Shown here: piece after piece, positions 677-35,232 of the stretch
How positions within the stretch are numbered: position 1 is the first letter of the stretch
Layout: each line of letters starts with the position of its first letter
Assembly (NCBI GenBank): GCA_965243315.1
Contig: CBDEUP010000007.1
Coordinates: forward strand, 21,064 to 85,063
DNA: 64,000 nt
Direction of reading: 5' to 3'
From: Alphaproteobacteria bacterium
Lineage (GTDB): Bacteria > Pseudomonadota > Alphaproteobacteria > UBA828
Position numbers and translations under genes: made by a program
Notes under the pieces: model-generated
Told to the model about the DNA's origin: nothing
Database searches by the model: none
The model's input: the letters and a program-made list of their open reading frames with translations, nothing else

Positions 677-1867
677 ATGACCGACCGACCCAAATCCACC
701 TTCGCCCGGCGCGTCCGCGCCGCAAAGCCAAGAACTGCCAAATACGAAGTCCGCGACGACGTGGTGAGCGGACTGGCGCTGACCATCCAGCCCACCGGGA
801 TCCGGACCTTCTTCCTCGCCCGCATGGTGCGCGGGCGCAGGCGCTACGCCACCATCGGCAGCGCCGACGCCATGACGATACCCGAGGCGCGGCGCGAGGC
901 CCGCAAGCTGGTCGCCAGCTACATCGAACCCGCGAAGCAGGACAAAGGCCCGAGAACGCCGGGACACCCGATGGACGCCTTCGCAGAGGAGTTTCTCGAC
1001 CGCTACGCCCGGCACTGGAAGCCCTCGACACTGACGGCCAGCACCTATGTCGTCCGCAACCATATCCTTCCCGCCTTCGGGCATATGACGGTGGACGCCA
1101 TCGCCGTCGAGCAGGTCCGGGACTGGTTCGCGTCCATGGCCGACAGGCCCGGCAACGCCAACCGCGCCATGCCCACCCTGTCGGTCATGATGCGCATGGC
1201 CGAGCTTTGGGGATACCGCCGCCACAACACCAATCCGTGCAAGAACACGCGGCGCTACAAAACGCAAGCCAAGGAGCGGTTCCTGACGGCGGAGGAAATG
1301 GCCCGGCTCAATGCCGTGCTGACCCGCGACGAGTTCCGGTGCCCCGATGTCGTCGCCATCGTCCGCCTGCTGATGCTGACCGGCTGCCGCTTCGGCGAGA
1401 TCGCGTCACTCCAATGGGACTGGATCAGGGGCCGGCGCATCTTCCTGCCCGATTCGAAATCCGGGCCGCGCACGGTCTGGCTATCGAGCGCCGCGCGCGC
1501 CGTCATCGACTCAATCCCGCACTACGGCCCCGATTGCCCGTATCTCTTTCCCGCCCGTCCGCCGACGCGGCCCGTCGACAACATCGCCTTCCAGTGGGAC
1601 CGCATCCGCGCCGAGGCGGGCTTGCCCGGCCTGCGGCTTCATGACCTCAGACATTCGTGGGCCTCGGTCGCCGCCATGAACGGCGTGGACATGGTGAGCA
1701 TCGCGAAGCTGTTGGGTCACGCGCTGGTCGAGACGACCGAGCGATACGTCCACCTGTCCGACCGCTCGGTTGCCGAGGCCGCCGACCGGGTGTCCGGGCG
1801 CATCGGGGCGGCTCTGGCCGGTAGCGGTGCGGTGAATGAGGGAGGGTGCGATCATGCCGACGGTTGA
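677..1867 (+). CDS. Tyrosine recombinase/integrase with N-terminal arm-binding domain (integrase 1)
   Basis: Full catalytic set TGCR, DSK, HDLRH, LGH, ERY; N-terminus has the arm-binding-domain pattern (GLALTIQPTGIRTF...TIG). Confidence 0.92.
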   Translation: MTDRPKSTFARRVRAAKPRTAKYEVRDDVVSGLALTIQPTGIRTFFLARMVRGRRRYATIGSADAMTIPEARREARKLVASYIEPAKQDKGPRTPGHPMDAFAEEFLDRYARHWKPSTLTASTYVVRNHILPAFGHMTVDAIAVEQVRDWFASMADRPGNANRAMPTLSVMMRMAELWGYRRHNTNPCKNTRRYKTQAKERFLTAEEMARLNAVLTRDEFRCPDVVAIVRLLMLTGCRFGEIASLQWDWIRGRRIFLPDSKSGPRTVWLSSAARAVIDSIPHYGPDCPYLFPARPPTRPVDNIAFQWDRIRAEAGLPGLRLHDLRHSWASVAAMNGVDMVSIAKLLGHALVETTERYVHLSDRSVAEAADRVSGRIGAALAGSGAVNEGGCDHADG

Positions 1868-3068
1868 CCTCACCGCCAAGCTGGCCCGCAAGACCGAACC
1901 CGACGACCGGGACGTGTTCCTGTTCGACCGGGCGCTGCCCGGCTTCGGGTTGCGCGTCCACCGGTCCGGTGCGAAGGCGTGGATCGTGCAGACCCGCATC
2001 GAGGGGAAGTCCCGGCGCATCGTCATCGCCCGTTACGGGGAGATGGACCTGGCGCATGCCCGCCGCCGCGCCCGCGATATCCTCGCGCGCATCCAGGCGG
2101 GCGACAATCCCGCCGACGACATCCGCAAGGAGAAGACGGCCCCGACCGTGGCCATGCTGGCCGATGAGTATCTCCGGCGCTGCGATCCCTACTGGAAGCC
2201 GTCGGGACGCAAGACCATCCGCATCTATCTCAAGGCCCGCATCCTGCCTGCCTTCGGCAAGATGCCGGTGGAGCGCGTCGGCCCGGAGGATGTGGCCGCG
2301 TGGTTCGACGAAGCGAGCCGGGACCGGCCCGGCGCGGCCAACCGCGCCTTCGAGATACTGCGCTCCATGATGTTCCGGGCCGAGGAATACGGCTTCCGCG
2401 AGCCGGGCACCAATCCCTGTCTCGGCATCAGGAAGAACCCGAGGCGCAACATCGCCCGGTTCCTCGACACCGACGAACTCGCCCGGCTCGGGCGGGCGCT
2501 CGACGCCCGCGAGGACAAACGACCCGAGGCTGTCGCCGCCATCCGCCTGCTGGCGCTCACCGGCTGCCGCCGGGGCGAAGTGCTTAATCTCCGCTGGCGC
2601 CACATCGGAGAGAACGCCATCGCCTTGCGCGATAGCAAGACTGGACCGCGCAGCGTGCCGCTCGGCGAAGCCGCGCGGGCGGTCATCGCGGCACTGCCCG
2701 GCCCACGCGACCCCGATGCGTTCCTGTTTCCGAGCCTCGCCGGGGGCAGACACGCACACCGGGTCGTGAACTTCTGGCACGCGGTCTGCCACGACGCCAA
2801 TCTCGGCAAGGTCCGATTGCACGATTTGCGGCACACGGCGGCGAGCCACGCCGTCATGTCGGGCGAGAACCTGCCGCTCGTGGGCAAGCTGCTTGGTCAT
2901 CGTCGCCACGAGACCACGGCGAGCTATGCTCATCTTGCCGATGGTCATCTGGTCGAGACGGCGGAGAAGGTCGGGAGCCTGATCGCCGAGGCGATGAACT
3001 TCCGGGACGCGCCGCCACCGTCGCCTTCCGCCTCCCGCGCCCTGCGCATGCGCGGGCGCTGGTTTTGA
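1854..3068 (+). CDS. Tyrosine recombinase/integrase with arm-binding domain (integrase 2)
   Basis: ATG at 1854 after GGAGG, overlapping integrase 1 by 14 nt; GFGLRVHRSGAKAW; TGCR, DSK, HDLRH, LGH, SYAH. Confidence 0.92.
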   Translation: MPTVDLTAKLARKTEPDDRDVFLFDRALPGFGLRVHRSGAKAWIVQTRIEGKSRRIVIARYGEMDLAHARRRARDILARIQAGDNPADDIRKEKTAPTVAMLADEYLRRCDPYWKPSGRKTIRIYLKARILPAFGKMPVERVGPEDVAAWFDEASRDRPGAANRAFEILRSMMFRAEEYGFREPGTNPCLGIRKNPRRNIARFLDTDELARLGRALDAREDKRPEAVAAIRLLALTGCRRGEVLNLRWRHIGENAIALRDSKTGPRSVPLGEAARAVIAALPGPRDPDAFLFPSLAGGRHAHRVVNFWHAVCHDANLGKVRLHDLRHTAASHAVMSGENLPLVGKLLGHRRHETTASYAHLADGHLVETAEKVGSLIAEAMNFRDAPPPSPSASRALRMRGRWF

Positions 3069-3187
3069 AGTCAGTTCCGATCCTACTCCCGCACAGAGTC
3101 CGGTCGATTTTCGACGCCGTCGCGATCCAGTCCTGCGCTTGCGCCGCCATATGGACTCACGCGCCACCATGCGCCAGACTTCGCCTC

Positions 3188-3327
3188 GCTAGCACTTTTC
3201 GGGTTCCCCGCTCTGTCGGGTCGCCCGCTGAATACAACAGCCTGATCCGGCAAGGGGTAGCTCCCCGATGCTTGGCGAATAGGCGGGGAACATTTCCCAT
3301 ACCGGAAAGTGTTAGCAACGGCCCGGC
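3188..3327 (+). ncRNA. Unrecognised conserved structured RNA motif, copy 1 (leader of lipoprotein gene)
   Basis: 15-bp closing stem 3188-3202/3302-3316; inner stem 3203-3211/3283-3291; 28-nt core identical to 30512-30539; compensatory changes versus copy 2. Confidence 0.7.
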
Positions 3328-3368
3328 TCCCGGCCGCATCGGGAGCGATGATCGTGAGGAGAACATCG

Positions 3369-5084
3369 ATGCACACCGTTTTCGCCATCGCCGCCGCCCT
3401 GTTCCTGCTTGTCGCCTGCGGAGGCGGTGGAGGCGGAGGCAAGCCCGACCCGATGACGCAACAGCCGAACCAGCCTGTTGTTGACACGGACGGCGATGGG
3501 GTAGCGGATGCTCAGGACGCCTTCCCGCGCGATGCTTCCGAGACGATGGACAGCGACGGAGACGGCGTGGGCGACAACGCGGACGCGTTCCCGCAGGACG
3601 CTTCGGAGACGATGGACACGGACGGAGACGGCGTGGGCGACAACGCGGACGCGTTCCCGCAGGACCCCTCAAAGACGGTAGAAGTTGATCGGCTACCCTT
3701 TCCATTCGCGTATGTCGATGATCCGAATACCGAGACGCTATTCGCGCGGCACTACAGCGCCCGAAACCTTCCGACCGTCCTTTCTTCGGACGTGAAGAAT
3801 TCGCCTATCTACACGGATGAAATTCTCGCCAGTGAAGCAGGGCCGACTCCTTTCGGCCAAGGAGGATACACGCCGAAGATTTTTGTAGGCGTAGACCAGG
3901 GTGATATCGGCCGATTGCCCGTGACCGGCACTCGTGGAGATTCGGAAATTCGCTTCGGCCAACTGAATGAAGGAGCAGGGCGCAGCCAATTGGTGGCCTA
4001 TTTGCAAGAGGCGTTTTCGGGTCCGGGTGTGGCTCGGTGGCCGCAAGCTCCGACAGTGCGGATTGTTGGCCAAGCATCGAGCCTTGACCAAAATATTGTT
4101 GCGGCCACGATTCAGCTAATCAATACTGCCCTTCCAGAAGGCTACAAAATCACTATGGGTAACTCATTGCCGGAAGATGCCGGGGAAACAGCCAATACCA
4201 TCCGAGTAAAATTCGTCCCTGTAAGTCCTAGAGGCGCTGGAGCAACAACATACAATCGGATTAGCACAAGTGCAGATGGTTACAAAGTGGTAGCGGATTC
4301 CCTAATCGAATTCTACAGGGATACCAACGTGTACGCGAATGCCACCGGGACGGCAGACGCGGGAATCGCCAGTATCCGGCCATCCGTGATCCTACTCGCC
4401 CATGAAATGATGCACGCTCTAGGAGTCGATGATCATCCATCGGCAGGCTACGCTACCATTCTGGAGGGAACCGCCGACATTTACGCCTTGGAACAGAACG
4501 GGAAGCAGCAACCTTTATCGCTTCTGTACCCGATAGACCGGGAATCATTGCGGGCGCTTTACAGCCTTGAACCGGGAACTGATCCGTCGTCCCTTGGCCC
4601 CTGGGCAAGCACTTCAAGGCACATTCACGGCAACGGCTCCCATGCCGGTTTCGGGGTTGCACTGCGCAACGGTTATGCCGAGCCGTGGGCTTACGGCTAT
4701 ACGCCGGACAGCGACCTTGCCGACAATCGGAGCCTGTCCGGTTCAGCGGTTTGGAACGGCGAATTGCTGGGCCTGACCCCGGACGCGGCGGCCGTCGCGG
4801 GCGATGCCGCGATCAGCGTCAGTCTGGCGTCCATGACGGGCCGGGCGGATTTCACCAATCTTGAGACATGGGGCGCGAACGCCGCGCCCGGCGCTGCCGG
4901 GAGCGGGGCGACATGGCTCGATGGCGATCTCGGCTATGGCATCGCGGTTCGCGGCAACACCTTCCGGGAGACCAGCGGCGACGACGGGCGCTTGACGGGC
5001 ATATTCACCGGGCGATCGCATGAAGGCGCGGCAGGCACGCTGGAACGGACGGACCTTACGGCGGCTTTCGGAGCATCACGCTAG
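3369..5084 (+). CDS. Surface lipoprotein: thrombospondin type-3-like Ca-binding repeats, zinc metalloprotease motif, C-terminal TbpB-like beta-barrel
   Basis: Lipobox LVAC then poly-Gly; three DxDGDGVxDxxDAFP repeats; HEMMHALGVDDH; C-terminus GIFTGRSHEGAAGTLERTDLTAAFGASR. Confidence 0.8.
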   Translation: MHTVFAIAAALFLLVACGGGGGGGKPDPMTQQPNQPVVDTDGDGVADAQDAFPRDASETMDSDGDGVGDNADAFPQDASETMDTDGDGVGDNADAFPQDPSKTVEVDRLPFPFAYVDDPNTETLFARHYSARNLPTVLSSDVKNSPIYTDEILASEAGPTPFGQGGYTPKIFVGVDQGDIGRLPVTGTRGDSEIRFGQLNEGAGRSQLVAYLQEAFSGPGVARWPQAPTVRIVGQASSLDQNIVAATIQLINTALPEGYKITMGNSLPEDAGETANTIRVKFVPVSPRGAGATTYNRISTSADGYKVVADSLIEFYRDTNVYANATGTADAGIASIRPSVILLAHEMMHALGVDDHPSAGYATILEGTADIYALEQNGKQQPLSLLYPIDRESLRALYSLEPGTDPSSLGPWASTSRHIHGNGSHAGFGVALRNGYAEPWAYGYTPDSDLADNRSLSGSAVWNGELLGLTPDAAAVAGDAAISVSLASMTGRADFTNLETWGANAAPGAAGSGATWLDGDLGYGIAVRGNTFRETSGDDGRLTGIFTGRSHEGAAGTLERTDLTAAFGASR

Positions 5085-6658: not shown

Positions 6659-7117
6659 TTACTTCCCTTCCGCGACGTTCAGCGCGAGTAGCTCCCGGAG
6701 CGCATCGTCTTCCGAAATCGCCGCGTCCCACCCGTAGGCCGCCGCGACGGCAGCATCGAGCGCGGCGTGCGCATCGGCGAGCCATTGCGGGCGGGCATTG
6801 TAGAGGGTCGTCAGCGTGCGGGCCTTGAGTTCCTTCGCCGCCGGCTCGTCGCGTGGGACTGGGCGCTTCGGATAGCCCGGCATCGGTTCGTCCACCCATT
6901 CCACCCAATCGGGCGGGTTGAGCCAGCGGTCGCGGAGTTCGGCCAGCCGCCGCGCGGCTTCGCCGATGGCGACGGCGGGCGGGTCGTCCGCATAGTCGGC
7001 GGCAGGAATGTCCGGCGAGAGGCCGTCCGGAAAGGGGAAGGTCTCGAAGGTGGTGGTCGGCGTGTAGCGCGGACCGTTGCCCTTGCCGAGCCACGTTCCG
7101 AGCCGGAGCGACCAAGC
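6659..7117 (-). pseudogene. C-terminal part of IS-interrupted MmeI-like RM enzyme
   Basis: Removing the IS and one TSD copy restores the in-frame ...HSRFHE|AWSLRLGTWLGKGNGPRYTPTTTFETFPFP...TLTTLYN. Confidence 0.9.
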
Positions 7118-7122
7118 CTCGT

Positions 7123-9084
7123 GAGGCGTGTGCGCTGTCACGCATCCCTTGGTGATCAAGGGCTCCAGCTGATCCGAGATTTTTCTTACCCCGGCGGCTT
7201 CGCAGACATCTGCGGCCCTGAGATCGGCGGATAGGGCGGATCGAGGATTTCCACCCCATAGCCGACGACGCTCCCAGGCTCACTTCCGGCCCCGTCGCGT
7301 CGTCCCGCCCGAATCGGATAGAAGGTGTCGCCATCGGGCCAGAGGCCCTCGTTCCATCCACCAGCCCTGGTAGGGAGAACGTGATGGCGACAACGGAGAA
7401 GCTACCCTTTTCCTGGCAGGCTGTCGAAGGCCTGCCGGACCTGGATCGCCTGCGTCTGGTGCTCGACACCCTGCCCGACGAGGAGATCGTGGCTGCGCTT
7501 GAGGCCGGGCGAGGTCGCGGGCGCAACGACTACCCGGTGCGGTCGATGTGGCGTGCGCTGATCGCGGGCGTGGTGTTCCAGCACGCCTCGATCCAGTCGC
7601 TGCTGCGGGAGATGGGCCGCAACCCGGCGCTCCTGGAACTCTGCGGGTTCGACCCGCTGCCTTTCCAGAGCGCGCCCGTGTTGGAGCTTCGCGCAGGCAC
7701 GAAGGAGCCACCATGCGCGGTGGCGCATCCGGCGCAGGTCCGCTCGACGGTGCCCAGCCACTGGAACTTCTCGCGCTTCCTGCGGCGCGTCGTGCTGCTT
7801 GAGAACGAGTGCGGCCTGGTGTCCGCAATGGTCGAGAGCCTGCGCGCGTCGCTCTTCGAAGAGCTGCCCGACTTCGGCCGCCATCTCGGCTACGACGGCA
7901 AGGCGATCGAGAGCCACTCGACGGGCCGGGTTGCCGAGGACAAGGGGAAGACCTCCGACCCCGACGCCGACTGGGGCAAGCATGAGACGAGCGGGGTGAA
8001 CGCCAAGACCGGCGCGATCTGGAAGAAGGTGAAATCATGGTTCGGCTACGGCCTCCACCTGATCGCCGACACCCACTACGAGGTCCCGGTGGCCTTCGAG
8101 GTGACGCGGGCGTCGGACTCGGAGGTCAAGATGCTCCCCAAGATGCTGGAGAACCTGTTCGCAAGAGCGCCGGAAATGGTGGAGCGCTGCGACGACTTCA
8201 GCGCCGACCGCGGTCTCGACAACGCTCCCCAGAAGAAGTTGCTCTGGGATAAGTGGGCCATTCGGCCGCTGGTCGACACGCGCTTGATGTGGAAGGCCGA
8301 GAAGGAGGAGCCGGGCTATGATCCGACGAAGCCGATCACGCGGGCGCTGTTCCCCAACCGCGCCGACGTCGTCGTCCACGACGAGCGCGGCCGCGTGTCC
8401 TGCATCTGCCCCCAGACCGGCGAGGTCCGCGCCATGGCCTTCCAGGGCTTCGAGGCCGAGCGCGGCCTCTGCGGCACGCTGAAATACCGCTGCCCGGCGG
8501 CGGCCTTCGGCTTCGACTGTGCAGGCAGCAAGGCGTGCCACCGGGCGGGCGGGGTGGAGCCCGGCGAGTACGGCCGCATCGTGCGCATCGATCTCGACAA
8601 GAACGACCGGCGCATCTTCACCCCGACGCCCTGGGGCAGCCCGTCGTGGCGGCGCGGCTACAACCGGCGCTCTGCGATAGAGAGGATCAACAGCCGCCTC
8701 GACAACAGCTTCAACTTCGAGACCCACTACATCCGCGGGCTCGCTAAGATGAAGACCCGTGTCGGGCTGGCGCTGGTGGTGATGATGGCGCTGGCCCTTG
8801 CGCAGGTGCGGGCCGGCCACGCGGAGCGGATGCGCTCGCTGGTCGGCGCGGTGCCGTACCTCGACACCGGCTGACCGGTTGTCCCACCTCCGACATCGCC
8901 GCTCGACCAAGCCGCCTGCCGGCGGATGGCAGACCGCGGCCATCCATGTCACGATGTTCCCGTAGCGTTCCGATCTCGCGTCTAATCGCTGCATTCTGCT
9001 CACCCGGCGGGGATCAGGCAGTCGATATCCGGCCGCCAAAGATCAGCGTCACGATGTCGAAATACGCCACAGCGCACATTCCTC
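7123..9084 (+). mobile_element. Insertion sequence, 1962 bp (IS1182/IS5-like DDE)
   Basis: IRs GAGGcgTGTGCGCTGT / ACAGCGCACAttCCTC; 5-bp TSD CTCGT at 7118-7122 and 9085-9089. Confidence 0.9.
7384..8874 (+). CDS. DDE transposase
   Basis: YDGKAI, SWFGYGLHL, SADRGLD, YNRRSAIERINSRL; family assignment is approximate. Confidence 0.9.
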   Translation: MATTEKLPFSWQAVEGLPDLDRLRLVLDTLPDEEIVAALEAGRGRGRNDYPVRSMWRALIAGVVFQHASIQSLLREMGRNPALLELCGFDPLPFQSAPVLELRAGTKEPPCAVAHPAQVRSTVPSHWNFSRFLRRVVLLENECGLVSAMVESLRASLFEELPDFGRHLGYDGKAIESHSTGRVAEDKGKTSDPDADWGKHETSGVNAKTGAIWKKVKSWFGYGLHLIADTHYEVPVAFEVTRASDSEVKMLPKMLENLFARAPEMVERCDDFSADRGLDNAPQKKLLWDKWAIRPLVDTRLMWKAEKEEPGYDPTKPITRALFPNRADVVVHDERGRVSCICPQTGEVRAMAFQGFEAERGLCGTLKYRCPAAAFGFDCAGSKACHRAGGVEPGEYGRIVRIDLDKNDRRIFTPTPWGSPSWRRGYNRRSAIERINSRLDNSFNFETHYIRGLAKMKTRVGLALVVMMALALAQVRAGHAERMRSLVGAVPYLDTG

Positions 9085-11487
9085 CTCGTGAAACCGGCTG
9101 TGCAGGATGCCGAATATCGTGTCGTCGTCGCGGGTGATGACGATCAACTGGTGATCGGGACACACGCCCGCATCGAGCCAGACGAACAGCCGATGCTTGG
9201 AAACCGTCGGGGTCGCGATGAAGCGAGGCAGACCATCGAGCGCCCGCCACATGCCCTGTCTCGGCTCGACATGCCGCCACCAGTTCAGGCGATACGCTTC
9301 CCGGCGGTTCCGCTGCCGCATCGGCCAAACATGTTCCCTTACGTGCGCGAAGGGTGCCTCGAAGAGCGCGGCATCCGCCTCCGTCATTTCCCAACCGAAA
9401 TCGACGATCCACTTGCCCGCCGGGCGGCGGGTCAGGTCCATGCCGTTGACCCAGGGCTTGAGCACATCGGCGTTTGTCCGCCCGTTCGGATTGGCCGGCA
9501 GGCGGAGCCACTCCCGAGCGAGATCGCCGGGAACGTCGAACGGCCCGCCCTTGGTGTCGCCCATAAAGGCGACCCCGATATTCCTCGGAATGCGCTTCGC
9601 CCCGATAAGGTCAATCCCGGCTCCGCCGCGACTGGCCGTAAGGTCGGAATGGATTTCGTCGGCGGGCTCACCATCCATGCGCGTCTCCGGCTTGTACGCG
9701 TCGTCCGGACCGGAGAAGCAGACCAGCGACACCCGCACCGCCGCACCGTCAATCACCCACGGCTCATCCGGCCAGGCATCGAAGATCGGGCGTCCGTCGG
9801 TCGCCGCCTGCAAGGCCCTGCGGTTCGCGCCGCCGCGTATGGAATTCGTGGCGACCAGCCCGACACGCTGCGTCGCGCCCGCCGCGACTTGCTCGCCCGC
9901 TTTCACGAACCAGTAGCAGACGAGATCGGCCTCGCGAGGTATGCGGCCCTGCCACGCCGCGAACATCCGCGAAACGTAGTCCTCGCCCAGCCCGCCGATC
10001 AGCAGCTTGCCGCCGAGAAACGGCGGGTTGCCAATCACGACATCGGCTTGCGGCCAGTCCGGTTGCCCAGCATCGGGCGAAAGGATCGCGTCCCGGCATT
10101 CGATGGTGTCGAGCGGGTCGAGAATCGGGTTGGTCGAATTGCTGAACCCGTTGCGACGCATCCACTGGATTTCACCGATCCACACCGACACGCGGGCAAG
10201 CTCGGCGGCGTAGGCGTTGATCTCGATGCCTGTGACGTTCGCAGGGCCGACGGCAGGAAACCCGCGCGCAAGGCCCAGCGTTTCCGCTTCGAGCTGAACC
10301 CGGTGCTCGATGTCCTTGAGCGCGTGCAGCGCGAGATAGAGGAAGTTCCCCGAGCCGCAAGCCGGATCGAGCACGGTGAATTTGCGCAGCCGTTCGAGGA
10401 AGGCGCGCAGCGCCCGGTCCGCCTGCCGCCGTAGCCGCGTCTGCGCCGCAGGCGAGCCCGCTGCATCGGCGCGCTCGACCATGGCCGCGAGCCCGGCCTT
10501 CGCCGCCTCCCATTCCGCGAGCAGCGGGCGGACGATCACCGGATCGACGATCCGCATGATCTTGTCGCGGTCGGTGTAATGCGCTCCAAGCTGCGAGCGC
10601 TTGTCCGGGTCGAGGCCGCGCTCGAACAGTGTGCCGAGAATCGACGGGTCGATCTCCGACCAGTCAAGCGCCGCCGCCTTGAGCGCCGTCTCGATCCCCT
10701 CCCGGTCGAGCGGCAACGCCGTTTCGTCGTCGAACAGCCCGCCGTTGAACCACGCCACCGGCTCGAACCCGACATCGCCGCCCGTCGCCATCGCGCCGAA
10801 CAGCCGTGAAGCGTAGTCCGCGAACTTCTCGGGGTCGCCTCGCGTGCGTTCCAACATCCGGGTGAACATGTTGCCGGGCAGCAGGCCCACATCCTCGGCG
10901 AACATGCAGAACACCAGACGGTTGACGAAGTGCGCGACCGTCTGCGGATCGTGGCCTCTGTCCCGCAAGCCTTGGGCAAGCTCCGCGAATGTCGCCGCCG
11001 CGCGCTCCGTCACCGTCTGCCGCGTCTCGCCGGGCCGCAGCCGCTCCGGGTCCGACATCGCCCACTTGAGCTTGTCGCGGGTCGCGCCGTCGGCGAGATC
11101 GTCGAGCGTGAACTCGTGCGTCACGCTCACGCTGTTCGTCCAGTTGGTGCGGATGCGGAACCGCGCCATGTCGGAGACGATCAGCAGCGGCGGGTTCTCC
11201 AGCGCGAGCGCGTACTGCCGCAACTGGTTGAACGCCGCGTCGAGGTCGGCGCGGCGGCCCTTGTACTCCCACGCGAAGCAGCCGCGCTTCCACACGTCGG
11301 CCCAGCCGTCGCCGCCGGTGTCCTTGCGCGCGCCGCGCTCGAAGCAGTACCGCTCGCCCGCCGGGTCGGCTTCCGCCGGCGTCGGTTCGCCGAGCAGCCG
11401 GCACAGGTCGATGAAGTGTTCCTGCGACGCCGAGCGTTCCTTCAGCTCCGATGCCCGCCACTTGGCGATGAACGCGCCCGGAGTCAT
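9085..11487 (-). pseudogene. N-terminal part of MmeI-like (type IIL/IIG) restriction-methyltransferase
   Basis: N-terminal ADV...EYK nuclease motif; GAHYT, LDPACGSGNFL, GNPPF (N6-adenine MTase); 953 aa when rejoined with 6659-7117. Confidence 0.9.
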
Positions 11488-30411: not shown

Positions 30412-30494
30412 GAGATGCGACCCGAGCCTCAATCGTTCCCCACAGCACACTTAGTCCATTGCGCCGCCCCGCGCAACCGCGCACACTCATTCTC

Positions 30495-30631
30495 GTAGAC
30501 ACTTCATGCGTCCCGCTCTGTCGGGTCGCCCGCTGAATAGAATAGCCCTAGACCCGACGTGACTGATCATCGCGTCCGGCGAATAGGCGGGGTCATCTCG
30601 CGTTCGCGTGAAGTGTCTACAACGGCCCGGC
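30495..30631 (+). ncRNA. Unrecognised conserved structured RNA motif, copy 2 (leader of lipoprotein gene)
   Basis: 16-bp closing stem 30495-30510/30605-30620; GTCGGGTC/GACCCGAC stem; three blocks identical to copy 1. Confidence 0.7.
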
Positions 30632-30666
30632 ACCAGCCGCCGCCGAGGCAACGCGGGAGAAGCCCC

Positions 30667-31539
30667 ATGAGATCGCCAATCTGTGTCGCGGCACTGACCG
30701 CGGCGGTTGCCCTGTTTTCCTTGCAAGCCTGTGGTGGAGGATTAGTTCATCATCTCCTGGATGGAAACGATGGGAATGACCAACCGGCAACGACAGAGCC
30801 ACCGGCGCCATCATCCCCCCAAATCAAGAGTGAGATCAGCGCCATCTTCGCGCGATCCAACACCCTCATCGAGGAGGAGGATCGTCACCCTCTGTTCGGC
30901 CCTCAGCGATATGCGGGCCAAATCCCGTCGAGGTTCAGCCTCAGAAGGGAACTTGAGGGGGAATACGAGTTTCTTGCCGAAGAGCAGGGCTTTTCTACTG
31001 CGGCTGCCGTCTGGACCACAACGGAGAGACAGAGATGGGTGACGGGCCACTTGAGCCTCGGGGGATGGATGGAGCACAGCTTCTTCCTGGTGAACCAGAC
31101 CGTCTCGGCTGACACTTATGGTGACTATGTGTCGGTCTACCTCGACATCTTTTCCATCGGTGCCGCGAGCGGTACGAACCCCTCTCCTCTTGGCGGCAGC
31201 GCTACCTGGGCCGGCATCATGGCCGGGGTAGACGAGAGCTTGGCAGGACCTGGCATCTCTCGCCTCGAGCATGAAGAGGACAATCTCTACCTCGGAGACG
31301 CCACGCTCACGATCGACGACTTCGCGATGCCGGAAGTGGATGTCCATTTCACCAACGTAACTAACGCAGACTCCGGCCGCCGGCTCAGGGATGTGAACTG
31401 GTTCGATCTGCCTGTGAATGCCGGCGGCTTCGAGGGACGCGGCATTCTCGGCCGCTTCTACGGCCCACAGCACCAAGAGGTAGGAGGGGTCTTCCAGTTC
31501 GGCACAATCAACGGTGCCTTCGGCGCCCTGCGCCATTGA
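30667..31539 (+). CDS. Lipoprotein with C-terminal TbpB-like beta-barrel
   Basis: Lipobox LQAC-GGG; GSATWAGIMAG...GRFYGPQHQEVGGVF...GAFGA, parallel to the C-terminus of 3369-5084. Confidence 0.8.
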   Translation: MRSPICVAALTAAVALFSLQACGGGLVHHLLDGNDGNDQPATTEPPAPSSPQIKSEISAIFARSNTLIEEEDRHPLFGPQRYAGQIPSRFSLRRELEGEYEFLAEEQGFSTAAAVWTTTERQRWVTGHLSLGGWMEHSFFLVNQTVSADTYGDYVSVYLDIFSIGAASGTNPSPLGGSATWAGIMAGVDESLAGPGISRLEHEEDNLYLGDATLTIDDFAMPEVDVHFTNVTNADSGRRLRDVNWFDLPVNAGGFEGRGILGRFYGPQHQEVGGVFQFGTINGAFGALRH

Positions 31540-33984: not shown

Positions 33985-34073
33985 GGAGGCGTGGCAGAGT
34001 GGTCGAATGCAGCGGTCTTTAAAACCGCCAGACCTCCCGGGTCTCGTGGGTTCGAATCCCACCGCCTCCGCCA
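33985..34073 (+). tRNA. tRNA with Ser body and UUA anticodon (ochre suppressor)
   Basis: Acceptor GGAGGCG/CGCCTCC, G73, CCA; anticodon arm GCGGT-CTTTAAA-ACCGC; long variable arm AGACCT/GGGTCT; T arm GTGGG-TTCGAAT-CCCAC. Confidence 0.92.
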
Positions 34074-34084
34074 GACCCCACTAA

Positions 34085-34121
34085 GGCCGACGTGTCCATA
34101 GCACGTCGGCCCATATTTTTT
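34085..34121 (+). terminator. Intrinsic terminator after tRNA
   Basis: GGCCGACGTG-tccatag-CACGTCGGCC followed by catatttttt. Confidence 0.75.
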
Positions 34122-34124
34122 AAA

Positions 34125-34200
34125 TCAATCCTTTGCCCAGCGCTTCGCAGCGGCCTTCCGCACGATCTCTCGCCGCCGTTCTGCCGAGAGGGCGAGTGTC
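34125..34200 (-). pseudogene. Decayed small basic protein gene downstream of the transposase
   Basis: Reads LSAERRREIVRKAAAKRWAKD* without a clear start; motif recalled from small ORFs of IS-associated regions. Confidence 0.4.
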
Positions 34201-34260
34201 TCTCGCGATGTGCCGAGCCGGGATGGGGTCCCGGCTCTCCTGCGTCGGCTCGGTAGGTTA

Positions 34261-35232
34261 CTACGACCTCGTGCCGCTCGATAGGCCGTTGTCTGCGATC
34301 AGCTCCCGGTAGCGCAGCCGCTTCCCGACCCCGCCATCGGCGACCGTGCCCATCATGTCGATGGTGTCGCGATCGCGCATGTTGTGCCGGGCTGCGAATT
34401 CCTGGACGTAGCGGTCCATGTGCTTCGGCGACAGCTTGTGGAACGTGCCGGTATGGCTCCGCTTCAACATGGACCAAAATGACTCGATTCCCTGCGTCCC
34501 CACGCCATCGTCCCGGACATACTCACCGGCCGAGTGATTCACGCTCTCGCGGTTCGGCAGGCCGCTATAGGCGCGCGCCTCGTCGGTGTAGATGGTGGCG
34601 CCTGGGGCCGCGTGGGTGCCGACAAAGGCGCTCAGGGTCTCTTTGTCCGCCGCCTCGATCGTCTGAGCGCGCACGGCACCGGTAGCCCTGTCGCGGGCAC
34701 CGGCGACGATGGTCTTGCCCAGGTCCGGCTTCTGGCGGGCCTCTCGGCGCTTCTTGCCGTGCATGTTCTTCATCTTGCCGCCGATGTAGGTCTCGTCCAC
34801 CTCAACCGGGCCAGAGAACACGCCGCCTTCGTTCGCCAGGGCAACCCGCAGCCGATGGGCGAGGAACCACGCGCTGCGCTGGTTGATGTTCAGGTCGCGA
34901 TGCAGCTTCATGGACGAAACGGACTTCAAGCTGGTGGTCATCAGGTAGGTGGCGATCATCCACACCTGGAAGCCGAGCTTGGAGCCCTCCATGACCGTGC
35001 CGGACTTCGCGCTGAAGCGCTTGGCACATTCCTTCTCGCGGCACCGGAAAGGCATCGTCTTGTGTTTCGCGCCGGTCTGCACGTTGACCGAACCGCAGTG
35101 CGGGCAGGTGATCCCGTCCGGCCAGCGACGCTCGATGAACCACGCCTCAGCGGTGGCGTCATCCGGGAACTTCCGCATGAGCTCGACCAGCGACATGCCT
35201 TCGCGGTGAGATTTTCCGGGTGCCTTCGCCAT
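34261..35232 (-). CDS. IS1595-family transposase
   Basis: Zn ribbon CPHC...CREKEC, HTH, VEVDETYIGG, IYTDE, IESFW, RLRYRELI. Confidence 0.95.
   Translation of the reverse strand: MAKAPGKSHREGMSLVELMRKFPDDATAEAWFIERRWPDGITCPHCGSVNVQTGAKHKTMPFRCREKECAKRFSAKSGTVMEGSKLGFQVWMIATYLMTTSLKSVSSMKLHRDLNINQRSAWFLAHRLRVALANEGGVFSGPVEVDETYIGGKMKNMHGKKRREARQKPDLGKTIVAGARDRATGAVRAQTIEAADKETLSAFVGTHAAPGATIYTDEARAYSGLPNRESVNHSAGEYVRDDGVGTQGIESFWSMLKRSHTGTFHKLSPKHMDRYVQEFAARHNMRDRDTIDMMGTVADGGVGKRLRYRELIADNGLSSGTRS

What the first reader, a model, noticed from the sequence alone, without database searches (positions are those of the whole stretch)
3188..3327. Unrecognised covarying structured RNA, present twice on unrelated mobile elements, each time leading a TbpB-like lipoprotein gene
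Seen: 3188-3327 and 30495-30631 share identical blocks CCCGCTCTGTCGGGTCGCCCGCTGAATA (28 nt), GGCGAATAGGCGGGG and AACGGCCCGGC. Stems change sequence but keep pairing: GCTAGCACTTTTCGG/CCGGAAAGTGTTAGC versus GTAGACACTTCATGCG/CGCGTGAAGTGTCTAC; TGTCGGGTC/GATCCGGCA versus GTCGGGTC/GACCCGAC; GCTG/CAGC versus GCTG/TAGC. TCGCC/GGCGA could form a pseudoknot or alternative fold. G-U wobbles work only on the + strand, favouring RNA. Both copies end 35-41 nt before the lipoprotein start. Inference: a new riboswitch, ribozyme or leader class tied to surface-protein cassettes; I do not recognise it as a known family.
Basis: partly seen in the sequence, partly recalled or inferred. Interest (0 to 1): 0.85.

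Follow-up and report, generated by a model that had tools for sequence, protein, structure and literature searches.

The report
Structured leader RNA before envelope genes
A roughly 135-base folded RNA sits at the start of many messenger RNAs for surface and envelope proteins in sponge-associated bacteria of several phyla; it is a larger, undescribed relative of the known small RNA sRNA-Xcc1 and probably controls translation of the gene behind it.

Summary
Window 3188-3327 and 30495-30631 are two of nine copies in this genome. Copies occur in 18 of 20 sampled genomes of the genus and in sponge and marine symbiont MAGs of several phyla.

On 90 distinct sequences, covariation supports five helices:
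- a 15-17 bp outer stem, P1;
- a helix between GYCGGGYCG and the invariant 3' tail CGGCCCGGC, called Pa;
- the helices Pb, Ph1 and P4.

A TTGAC box lies at a fixed distance upstream, which places the transcript start at P1. An ORF with a Shine-Dalgarno site starts 20-60 nt after the tail in 139 of 154 loci. Most of these ORFs encode lipoproteins, secreted or outer-membrane proteins, or LPS enzymes.

No Rfam family reaches its threshold. sRNA-Xcc1 (RF02221) matches below threshold in both directions.

The 3' strands of P1 and Pa also have partners in the downstream leader. This fits a translational switch whose trigger is unknown.

The element is not tied to mobile elements. I rate it a new variant of a known kind.

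The parts
3152..3180 (+). Copy A: putative promoter. -35-like TGGACT at 3152-3157, 17-nt spacer, -10-like CAGACT at 3175-3180, then 7 pyrimidine-rich nt before P1.
   Evidence: Position inferred from the family. An exact TTGAC starts 35-37 nt before P1 nt 1 in 82 of 156 loci, and only 4 occurrences lie outside 34-40 nt. This copy is a poor match, and the generic scan found no promoter here.
3188..3202 (+). Copy A: P1 5' strand (GCTAGCACTTTTCGG), the probable 5' end of the transcript.
   Evidence: 15 of 15 P1 pairs are compensatory across the family. The first nt is G in 142 of 158 elements.
3215..3223 (+). Copy A: Pa 5' strand GTCGGGTCG. It pairs with the 3' tail at 3319-3327.
Evidence: Pa is 96.3% paired with compensatory changes at two pairs.
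3224..3229 (+). Copy A: Pb 5' strand CCCGCT. It pairs with GGCGGG at 3282-3287.
   Evidence: 98.7% paired, and 4 of 6 pairs are compensatory, e.g. CCUGC/GCAGG. The competing stem from the minimum-energy fold is rejected.
3230..3281 (+). Copy A: conserved internal loop (GAATACAACA at 3230-3239 facing GAATA at 3277-3281). It encloses Ph1 (3240-3242 with 3274-3276) and the inserted arm with hairpin P4 GGGGTAGCTCCCC (3254-3266).
   Evidence: Ph1 is 97.2% paired (3 of 3 pairs compensatory) and P4 is 96.4% paired (4 of 4). The loop letters also align to the sRNA-Xcc1 consensus.
3302..3316 (+). Copy A: P1 3' strand CCGGAAAGTGTTAGC.
   Evidence: Across the family this strand is also complementary to its own downstream leader. 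No clear match of that kind is seen for this copy.
3319..3327 (+). Copy A: invariant tail CGGCCCGGC, which is the Pa 3' strand.
3326..3371 (+). Copy A: rest of the leader. Hairpin GCTCCCG/CGGGAGC at 3326-3346, SD GAGGAG at 3356-3361, ATG at 3369-3371 of a lipoprotein gene (3369-5084).
   Evidence: Read; the protein has a lipobox-type N-terminus and no Pfam family above cut-off.
30459..30487 (+). Copy B: putative promoter. -35-like TTGCGC at 30459-30464 and -10-like CACACT at 30482-30487.
   Evidence: Same spacing as the family. The generic scan found none.
30495..30631 (+). Copy B: whole element. P1 30495-30510 with 30605-30620; Pa 30520-30528 with 30623-30631; Pb 30529-30534 with 30586-30591; Ph1 30545-30547 with 30578-30580. 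The inserted arm has a different hairpin sequence (30559-30577).
   Evidence: 120.6 bits with model R2.
30627..30669 (+). Copy B: leader. Short hairpin of the tail with GCCG (loop ACCA), GGCAACGCG at 30647-30655 (resembles the P1 5' strand), SD GGGAG at 30655-30659, ATG at 30667-30669 of a lipoprotein gene (30667-31539) with a weak TbpB_B_D match.
   Evidence: Read..

Best explanation
The element is the promoter-proximal, structured 5' leader of an mRNA. It belongs to the same broad kind as sRNA-Xcc1 and acts in cis on the gene 20-60 nt downstream.

Shown: the RNA folds as a three-arm junction.
- Pa joins GYCGGGYCG to the invariant tail.
- Pb, a conserved GAAUA/GAAUA internal loop, Ph1 and P4 form the second arm.
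- P1 is the third arm. Unlike in sRNA-Xcc1, it is made between the very 5' end of the transcript and the stretch just before the tail.

Inferred: the 3' strands of P1 and Pa have a second set of partners in the downstream leader. These are a near-copy of the Pa 5' strand right after the tail and, in about a third of loci, a degenerate copy of the P1 5' strand that ends in or at the Shine-Dalgarno site. The RNA can therefore take one of two forms. Either the junction fold forms and the ribosome site is free, or a long downstream hairpin forms and the ribosome site is masked.

What tips the balance is unknown. It could be a small ligand, a protein, or loss of the 5' strand. The genes served suggest control of the cell surface.
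For: Structure:
- 95.5% of 3494 cells are paired against 77.0% in shuffles (0 of 500 shuffles reach it). The covariation score is 0.52 against 0.17.

Position:
- An exact TTGAC starts 35-37 nt before P1 in 82 of 156 loci, and G is the first nt in 142 of 158.
- An ORF starts 20-60 nt after the tail in 139 of 154 loci, 136 of them with an SD.
- No intrinsic terminator lies between element and gene in either window copy.

Second partners:
- The tail pairs with the sequence 3-7 nt downstream over at least 5 bp in 107 of 158 loci, against 4 of 158 in a shifted control. In 28 loci the pairing is 9 bp.
- The P1 3' strand is more complementary to its own leader (+10 to +50) than to other loci's leaders: 17 of 61 dereplicated loci rank in the top tenth, p = 0.0009. 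The P1 5' strand control gives p = 0.95 and the coding-region control p = 0.3.
- In-silico removal of the P1 5' strand lowers the unpaired probability of the ribosome site from 0.455 to 0.348. 30 of 88 loci fall by more than 0.15 and 2 rise by more than 0.15.

Relatives:
- In true sRNA-Xcc1 loci the same region is complementary to its own ribosome site: 11 of 20 rank in the top tenth, p = 0.0024.

Genes:
- Of 85 distinct downstream proteins, 35 have a lipobox and 24 a signal peptide or membrane helix.
- Pfam on 72 of them found TbpB_B_D 7, Glyco_transf_25 5, OMP_b-brl 3, Opacity 3, plus CsgG and Wzy_C.
Against: - Complementarity between the P1 3' strand and its own leader is clear in only about a third of loci, and I saw none for window copy A.
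- An ungapped-helix measure showed almost no excess (8.28 against 8.03).
- Most of the modelled loss of ribosome-site access is unspecific. With the P1 3' strand also reversed, the value is 0.385 against 0.348.
- P1 and Pa are both supported by covariation and might coexist in one pseudoknot-like fold, in which case no switch is needed.
- No ligand, binding protein, transcript start or transcript end has been measured.
- The only RNA data are contigs from one metatranscriptome run, which may contain DNA.
- The generic promoter scan found nothing at either window copy.
- 26 of 85 downstream proteins scored as neither lipoprotein nor signal-peptide or membrane protein by my heuristic. By eye several still have signal peptides; the rest include GT25 enzymes, HTH proteins and probable ORF miscalls.
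Confidence: 0.5

Rival explanations
1. A constitutive leader with no switch. The paired 5' end and compact fold protect the mRNA from 5'-end-dependent decay and/or help ribosome loading, as 5' stem-loops do for some outer-membrane protein mRNAs (recalled knowledge).
For: - The transcript probably begins inside a 15-17 bp helix.
- P1 and Pa are both well paired, so a single fold is possible.
- The downstream genes are diverse.
- The P1 3' strand matches its own leader in only about a third of loci.
Against: - A stabiliser does not need a nearly invariant 28-nt core, a conserved internal loop, or a tail with a conserved second partner.
- The own-leader complementarity is statistically above its controls.
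Confidence: 0.22
2. Chiefly a gene for a stable small RNA that acts in trans, as sRNA-Xcc1 is annotated. On this view the closeness to the next gene is secondary.
For: - sRNA-Xcc1 was seen as a discrete RNA of about 100 nt on Northern blots, with mapped ends giving 88 nt (passages of PMC2996969).
- Homologues were detected as transcripts in Xylella (passages of PMC12189769).
- Contigs of an RNA library hold copies of the element.
Against: - No terminator follows the tail in the window copies.
- 139 of 154 loci have a co-directional ORF start within 20-60 nt.
- P1 differs at every locus and pairs within the same RNA.
- A processed leader fragment could account for a discrete band.
Confidence: 0.15
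3. A DNA-level mobile or recombination element, such as a MITE, an integron attC-like site or a transposon end.
For: - The element is multi-copy, patchy and found across phyla.
- Copy A follows two integrases.
- IS1595 transposases neighbour 9 of 97 loci.
- sRNA-Xcc1 is reported in integron cassettes (passages of 10.1101/2025.06.18.660453).
Against: - Spacing to a -35 box upstream and to an SD and ATG downstream is fixed, and orientation is always with the gene.
- G-U pairs work on one strand only.
- The outer stem differs at every copy, unlike transposon ends.
- 84 of 97 upstream neighbours are not mobile-element genes.
- No match in the plasmid collection.
Confidence: 0.04
4. A self-cleaving ribozyme.
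For: None, beyond a junction fold with conserved loops.
Against: No match to any ribozyme family in Rfam, even at E up to 10. No conserved site stands out as a cleavage point.
Confidence: 0.03

Closest known systems
sRNA-Xcc1 (Rfam RF02221), reported as an integron-encoded trans-acting sRNA of Xanthomonas campestris
   Same: - An outer helix of about 9 bp, xCCGGGxG with its complement. In this family it is Pa.
- An inner helix, Pb, directly following Pa.
- An internal loop reading GAAUAcAA on one side and GAAUA on the other.
- An apical hairpin and an NCC(A/C) stretch after the helix (alignments).
- Multi-copy, with a patchy spread (over the cut-off in 24 of 151 genomes of the phylum sample).
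- A region before the 3' strand of the outer helix that is complementary to the ribosome site of the next gene.
   Different: - This family scores 26-30 bits against a gathering score of 53.
- It has a 5' extension of about 27 nt whose first 15-17 nt form P1 with the stretch that is 'hairpin 2' in sRNA-Xcc1.
- Most members carry a 30-40 nt insertion (the P4 arm) in the apical hairpin.
- The Pa sequence is nearly invariant.
- Downstream genes are envelope genes, not the small cytoplasmic proteins seen at sRNA-Xcc1 loci.
- Model R2 of this family finds no sRNA-Xcc1 with default filters.
Translational riboswitches that mask the Shine-Dalgarno site (for example the thiM/thiB TPP class; recalled knowledge)
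   Same: - The 3' strand of the closing helix of a conserved fold has an alternative partner at the ribosome site.
- Conserved core with variable stems.
- Located in the 5' UTR.
   Different: - No ligand is known.
- The served genes share a location (the envelope), not a pathway.
- The alternative pairing is detectable in only part of the loci.
c-di-GMP-I (GEMM) riboswitch, as an analogy in gene association only (recalled knowledge)
   Same: It sits before varied genes for surface, secreted and membrane proteins rather than one metabolic pathway.
   Different: No sequence or structure match. The only c-di-GMP family hit was noise at E 8.6, outside the element.

Membership tests
sRNA-Xcc1 (RF02221) | Reaches the Rfam gathering score (53 bits). 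| tested here: not met
   26.3 bits at window 3215-3335. 26.8-29.7 bits for four reduced variants. 28.2 and 26.3 bits are the best two hits in the own genome.
sRNA-Xcc1 (RF02221) | Outer helix enclosing an inner helix, a GAAUAcAA / GAAUA internal loop and an apical hairpin. | tested here: met
   End-to-end alignments to the model. Pa, Pb and Ph1 are 96-99% paired with compensatory changes. In the reverse direction, model R3's best hit lies on the RF02221 site in 19 of 20 loci, 4 of them at E < 0.01.
sRNA-Xcc1 (RF02221) | A self-contained second hairpin between the inner helix and the 3' strand of the outer helix. | tested here: not met
   That stretch is the P1 3' strand. It pairs with a 5' extension that sRNA-Xcc1 lacks.
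sRNA-Xcc1 (RF02221) | Acts in trans as an sRNA. | not testable with these tools
   Only the title of the 2011 paper and citing passages were seen. The paper itself is not held.
Riboswitch (generic) | Conserved, covarying fold in a 5' UTR. | tested here: met
Riboswitch (generic) | Expression platform with mutually exclusive pairings that reach the ribosome site or a terminator. | tested here: inconclusive
   The tail has a second partner in 107 of 158 loci. The P1 3' strand matches its own leader in 17 of 61 loci (top tenth), p = 0.0009. The specific effect in folding models is small.
Riboswitch (generic) | Binds a small ligand. | not testable with these tools
Known self-cleaving ribozymes and other Rfam 15 families | Match to the family model. 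| tested here: not met
   At gathering scores the whole window gave only two tRNAs. At E up to 10, the only match spanning the element is sRNA-Xcc1; a 12-nt DUF805b match (E 8.6) on the opposite strand also touches it.
MITE / integron attC-type DNA element | Terminal repeats of shared sequence, no fixed relation to promoter and start codon, either orientation. | tested here: not met
   The outer stem differs at every copy. Spacing to TTGAC and to SD/ATG is fixed and orientation is with the gene.

The most novel reading that the evidence does not exclude
This is a new riboswitch-type sensor for an unknown signal, plausibly a signalling molecule rather than a metabolite. It sets which surface lipoproteins, outer-membrane proteins and LPS-modifying enzymes a sponge symbiont displays, and it has spread with its promoter among bacteria of several phyla that share that habitat. 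As a corollary, the widespread sRNA-Xcc1 would itself be a cis-acting leader of the same superfamily rather than, or as well as, a trans-acting sRNA.
Probability: 0.3. Interest if true: 0.9.

Novelty: new variant of a known kind. Interest (0 to 1): 0.77.

Why it matters
- **A large unfiled RNA family.** It is well-covarying (158 distinct members in hand) and no Rfam model reaches its threshold on it. It is present at 1-13 copies per genome in symbionts of sponges and other marine hosts.
- **A shared control point for the bacterial surface.** It marks genes for surface lipoproteins, porin-like proteins, LPS glycosyltransferases and an O-antigen ligase. A host cell meets this surface first.
- **Spread across phyla.** Nearly the same core occurs in Alpha- and Gammaproteobacteria, Chloroflexi, Acidobacteriota and Gemmatimonadetes MAGs. 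This makes it a marker, and perhaps a vehicle, of gene exchange inside one habitat.
- **A testable re-reading of a known family.** It suggests that sRNA-Xcc1, found over the cut-off in 24 of 151 sampled genomes of the phylum, is a cis-acting leader.
- **A defined experiment.** If the trigger is a ligand, the family is an orphan riboswitch candidate with clear helices and clear mutants to make.

Tried and rejected
**Structures rejected or weak**
- The minimum-energy fold (first CCCGC paired with GCGGG) was rejected. It is 79.5% paired against 79.6% in shuffles, and 346 of 500 shuffles reach it. My first test of it (helix 2) was one base out of register and is void.
- A local hairpin of the first block with CGGG is 90.2% paired against 89.5% in shuffles, which is uninformative.
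- MAFFT alignments of whole elements misplace P1. I therefore built a first model from one sequence given twice and realigned with Infernal.

**Tests that gave little**
- The ungapped-helix test of the P1 3' strand against its leader showed no clear excess.
- Model R2 against true sRNA-Xcc1 loci with default filters found nothing.
- The plasmid collection gave no match.
- The generic promoter and terminator scans found nothing at either window copy.

**RNA evidence**
- Only one RNA run held part of the stretch. Its contigs show relatives of the element and a piece of the lipoprotein gene, but they cannot show starts, ends or strand, and the library may contain DNA. Parts without cover there mean nothing.

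**Literature**
- The search for 'sRNA-Xcc1' found 24 papers, of which 20 were listed. I read passages of three.
- Two broader searches gave nothing relevant in their listings. I therefore cannot say that a cis role of sRNA-Xcc1, or this long form, is not in print.
- The 2011 sRNA-Xcc1 paper is not held. Supplements were not consulted.

**Ideas considered and dropped for lack of any test**
- A tRNA-like acceptor end (a helix followed by ACCA).
- A kink-turn or loop-E reading of the internal loop.
- An RfaH ops-like reading of GGGGTAGCT.

Full report
**1. The observation**

The 28-nt block is identical in both copies. Each element ends 41 or 35 nt before an ATG that opens a protein with a lipobox-type N-terminus.

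As RNA the + strands fold with z = -4.09 and -3.23. The opposite strands give -1.74 and -1.28.

**2. How many copies, and where**

- A pattern search found six copies in the window's genome and none for the reversed control.
- A covariance model built from copy A found nine, with E from 3e-37 to 0.018.
- A model of all nine (R2) found the element in 18 of 20 other genomes of the genus, at 1-13 matches each. It found it in 1 of 5 genomes of a sister family and in 0 of 11 other families sampled at that stage.
- In an even sample of the class it found the element in 5 of 150 other families.
All listed records are MAGs. Most are Alphaproteobacteria; others are labelled Gammaproteobacteria, Chloroflexi, Gemmatimonadetes, Acidobacteriota/Bryobacterales and Solirubrobacterales.
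- R2 confirmed 82 matches in the 80 loci returned.
- Whole-genome searches gave 4 copies in the Acidobacteriota MAG, 6 on one gammaproteobacterial chromosome, 5 in the Chloroflexi MAG, 5 in another gammaproteobacterium and none in the Solirubrobacterales MAG. Binning error therefore cannot explain all of the cross-phylum spread.
- The window region itself is held by sponge-metagenome runs from several studies.

**3. Structure**

I used an alignment of 95 model-found hits from the genus and class samples (90 distinct). It is not biased by the search pattern. Results:

| Helix | Pairs with | Cells paired | Pairs with changes on both sides |
|---|---|---|---|
| P1 | 5' end with the stretch before the tail | 96.7% | 15 of 15 |
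| Pa | GYCGGGYCG with tail CGGCCCGGC | 96.3% | 2 of 9; 4 more vary on one side only |
| Pb | second CCCGCU with GGCGGG | 98.7% | 4 of 6 |
| Ph1 | GCC with GGC | 97.2% | 3 of 3 |
| P4 | hairpin in the inserted arm | 96.4% | 4 of 4 |
| P4 extension | | 77.5% | 2 of 3 |

- For Pa, the compensatory changes include G-C to U-A and A-U at the innermost pair and C-G to U-A at the next.
- For Pb, an example is CCUGC/GCAGG, seen in at least nine loci.
- Overall 95.5% of cells are paired against 77.0% in shuffles, and 0 of 500 shuffles reach the observed values.
- The stem that minimum-energy folding prefers (first CCCGC with GCGGG) shows no covariation and is rejected.
His GCUG/CAGC and TCGCC/GGCGA pairings are 83% and 89% paired, with little compensation.
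- In P1, G-U pairs (105 cells, summed) outnumber non-pairs (44). This fits RNA of the + strand.

Pa, Pb/Ph1 and P1 meet at one junction. P1's 5' strand comes from outside Pa, so the topology is pseudoknot-like. Whether P1 and Pa coexist or alternate cannot be told from sequence.

**4. Setting**

- An exact TTGAC begins 35-37 nt before P1's first base in 82 of 156 loci. Only four occurrences lie outside 34-40 nt in the 70 nt examined.
- The hexamer 8-13 nt before P1 often reads TACGCT, TAGCCT or similar.
- The last 7 nt before P1 are 79% pyrimidine.
- P1 begins with G in 142 of 158 elements.

I infer that transcription starts at P1. The two window copies have poorer boxes, and the generic scan reports no promoter and no terminator there.

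Downstream, 139 of 154 loci have an ORF start 20-60 nt after the tail (median 38), 136 of them with an SD.

**5. The genes served**

- Of 85 distinct downstream proteins, 35 have a lipobox and 24 a signal peptide or membrane helix by a simple heuristic. Several of the remaining 26 also look exported.
- Pfam on 72 of them (those of at least 80 aa) found TbpB_B_D 7, Glyco_transf_25 5, OMP_b-brl 3, Opacity 3, Rhodanese 3, HTH_3 3 and SNase 2. It also found single CsgG, Wzy_C, Peptidase_S8 and GH113 hits.
- In this genome, eight of nine downstream genes encode exported proteins and one a family-25 glycosyltransferase.
- Copy B's protein has a weak TbpB_B_D match, and most of its more distant homologues carry that domain. 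Copy A's protein does not show it.

**6. Mobile elements**

- Copy A follows two tandem integrases. It precedes an HNH gene and an MmeI-type restriction gene split by an insertion sequence.
- Copy B lies between ordinary genes, with a tRNA and an IS1595 transposase 3-4 kb away.
- Of 97 upstream neighbours across the family, 9 are IS1595 transposases, 3 integrases and 1 a relaxase. The other 84 matched no mobile-element family; in all, 103 Pfam families were hit.

The element is therefore not part of one mobile element.

**7. Relation to sRNA-Xcc1**

- At permissive thresholds RF02221 aligns end to end with the core: 26.3 bits for copy A and 26.8-29.7 bits for the reduced 113-116 nt variants, against a cut-off of 53.
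- Its two best hits in the whole own genome are two of the nine elements.
- In the reverse direction, a core model of this family (R3, with Pa and without P1) run with filters off put a hit on the RF02221 site in 19 of 20 true sRNA-Xcc1 loci. The 11 best of its 37 hits are all at those sites, and four have E < 0.01.
- R2, which includes P1, found none with default filters.
- True sRNA-Xcc1 is common: it is over the cut-off in 24 of 151 genomes of the phylum sample.
- Its members lack the 5' extension. They carry a small hairpin where this family has the P1 3' strand, and they precede small cytoplasmic proteins.

**8. Mechanism**

In true sRNA-Xcc1 loci, the hairpin-2 region is complementary to the stretch around the SD of the next gene. 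It forms two helices that flank the GGAG. 11 of 20 loci rank in the top tenth against other loci's leaders, p = 0.0024.

In this family the evidence is as follows.
- The tail can pair with the sequence 3-7 nt downstream over at least 5 bp in 107 of 158 loci, against 4 of 158 in a shifted control. 43 of these contain G-U pairs, and 28 reach 9 bp, which amounts to a copy of the Pa 5' strand.
- The P1 3' strand is more complementary to its own leader than to other loci's leaders: 17 of 61 rank in the top tenth, p = 0.0009. The P1 5' strand and coding-region controls are null.
- Examples are seen in own-genome copies at C6:637.9k and C6:607.5k.
- Folding models lose ribosome-site accessibility when the P1 5' strand is removed (0.455 to 0.348), but most of that loss is unspecific (0.385 with the P1 3' strand reversed).
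- An ungapped measure showed no excess.

I therefore propose, at about even odds, a cis-acting translational switch whose trigger is unknown. The rivals are a constitutive stabilising leader, a trans-acting sRNA, a DNA element and a ribozyme.

**9. RNA evidence**

One sponge metatranscriptome run holds contigs with relatives of the element and an exact 227-nt piece of copy A's gene. Contigs cannot show ends or strand, and DNA may be present in the library.

**10. Novelty**

No Rfam family reaches its threshold. The nearest family is matched only below threshold, and the architecture, taxa and genes served all differ. In the literature I could search I saw no description of this long form or of a cis role for sRNA-Xcc1. 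The key 2011 paper was not available. I rate it a new variant of a known kind.

Noticed in passing
L148-L167 (true sRNA-Xcc1 loci in other genomes): In bona fide RF02221 members, the loop of the second hairpin and the UUUUCGG after it are complementary to the sequences on either side of the SD of the gene about 25-40 nt downstream. Examples are CUUACGUC with GACGUAAG and UUUUCGG with CCGAAAA. This suggests the 'trans-acting sRNA' is also, or instead, a cis leader.
   Followed up: partly
window 677-3068: Two tandem, slightly overlapping tyrosine integrase genes (677-1867 and 1836-3068) lie directly upstream of copy A. In a sponge DNA run this stretch has far higher summed contig depth than the 270 nt that follow, so it is repeated or widely shared.
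   Followed up: no
window 6659-11487: An MmeI-type restriction-modification gene appears to be split by an insertion sequence. The C-terminal piece is at 6659-7159 (-), the DDE transposase at 7381-8874 (+), and the main part at 9049-11487 (-).
   Followed up: no
window 33985-35232 and 9 of 97 family loci: IS1595-type transposases are the commonest single neighbour upstream of the element (9 of 97). One lies at window 34261-35232 beside an 86-nt tRNA at 33985-34070.
   Followed up: no
L015 (own genome C7:233407-233522), L130-L133, L142, L146: Reduced variants of 107-116 nt lack the inserted P4 arm and the first CCCGC block but keep P1, Pa and Pb. They look intermediate between this family and sRNA-Xcc1. 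Four of them have a C opposite an A at one Pa position where others have U-G.
   Followed up: partly
L065, L082, L084, L106; L064, L093: Not all served genes are envelope genes. One MAG carries several copies before paralogous HTH proteins (N-terminus ...RWLWKWIA...). Two loci precede small zinc-ribbon membrane proteins.
   Followed up: no
window 3369-5084: Copy A's lipoprotein starts with a glycine run after the lipobox cysteine, followed by aspartate-rich repeats that weakly match thrombospondin type 3 repeats (E 0.009, below cut-off).
   Followed up: no
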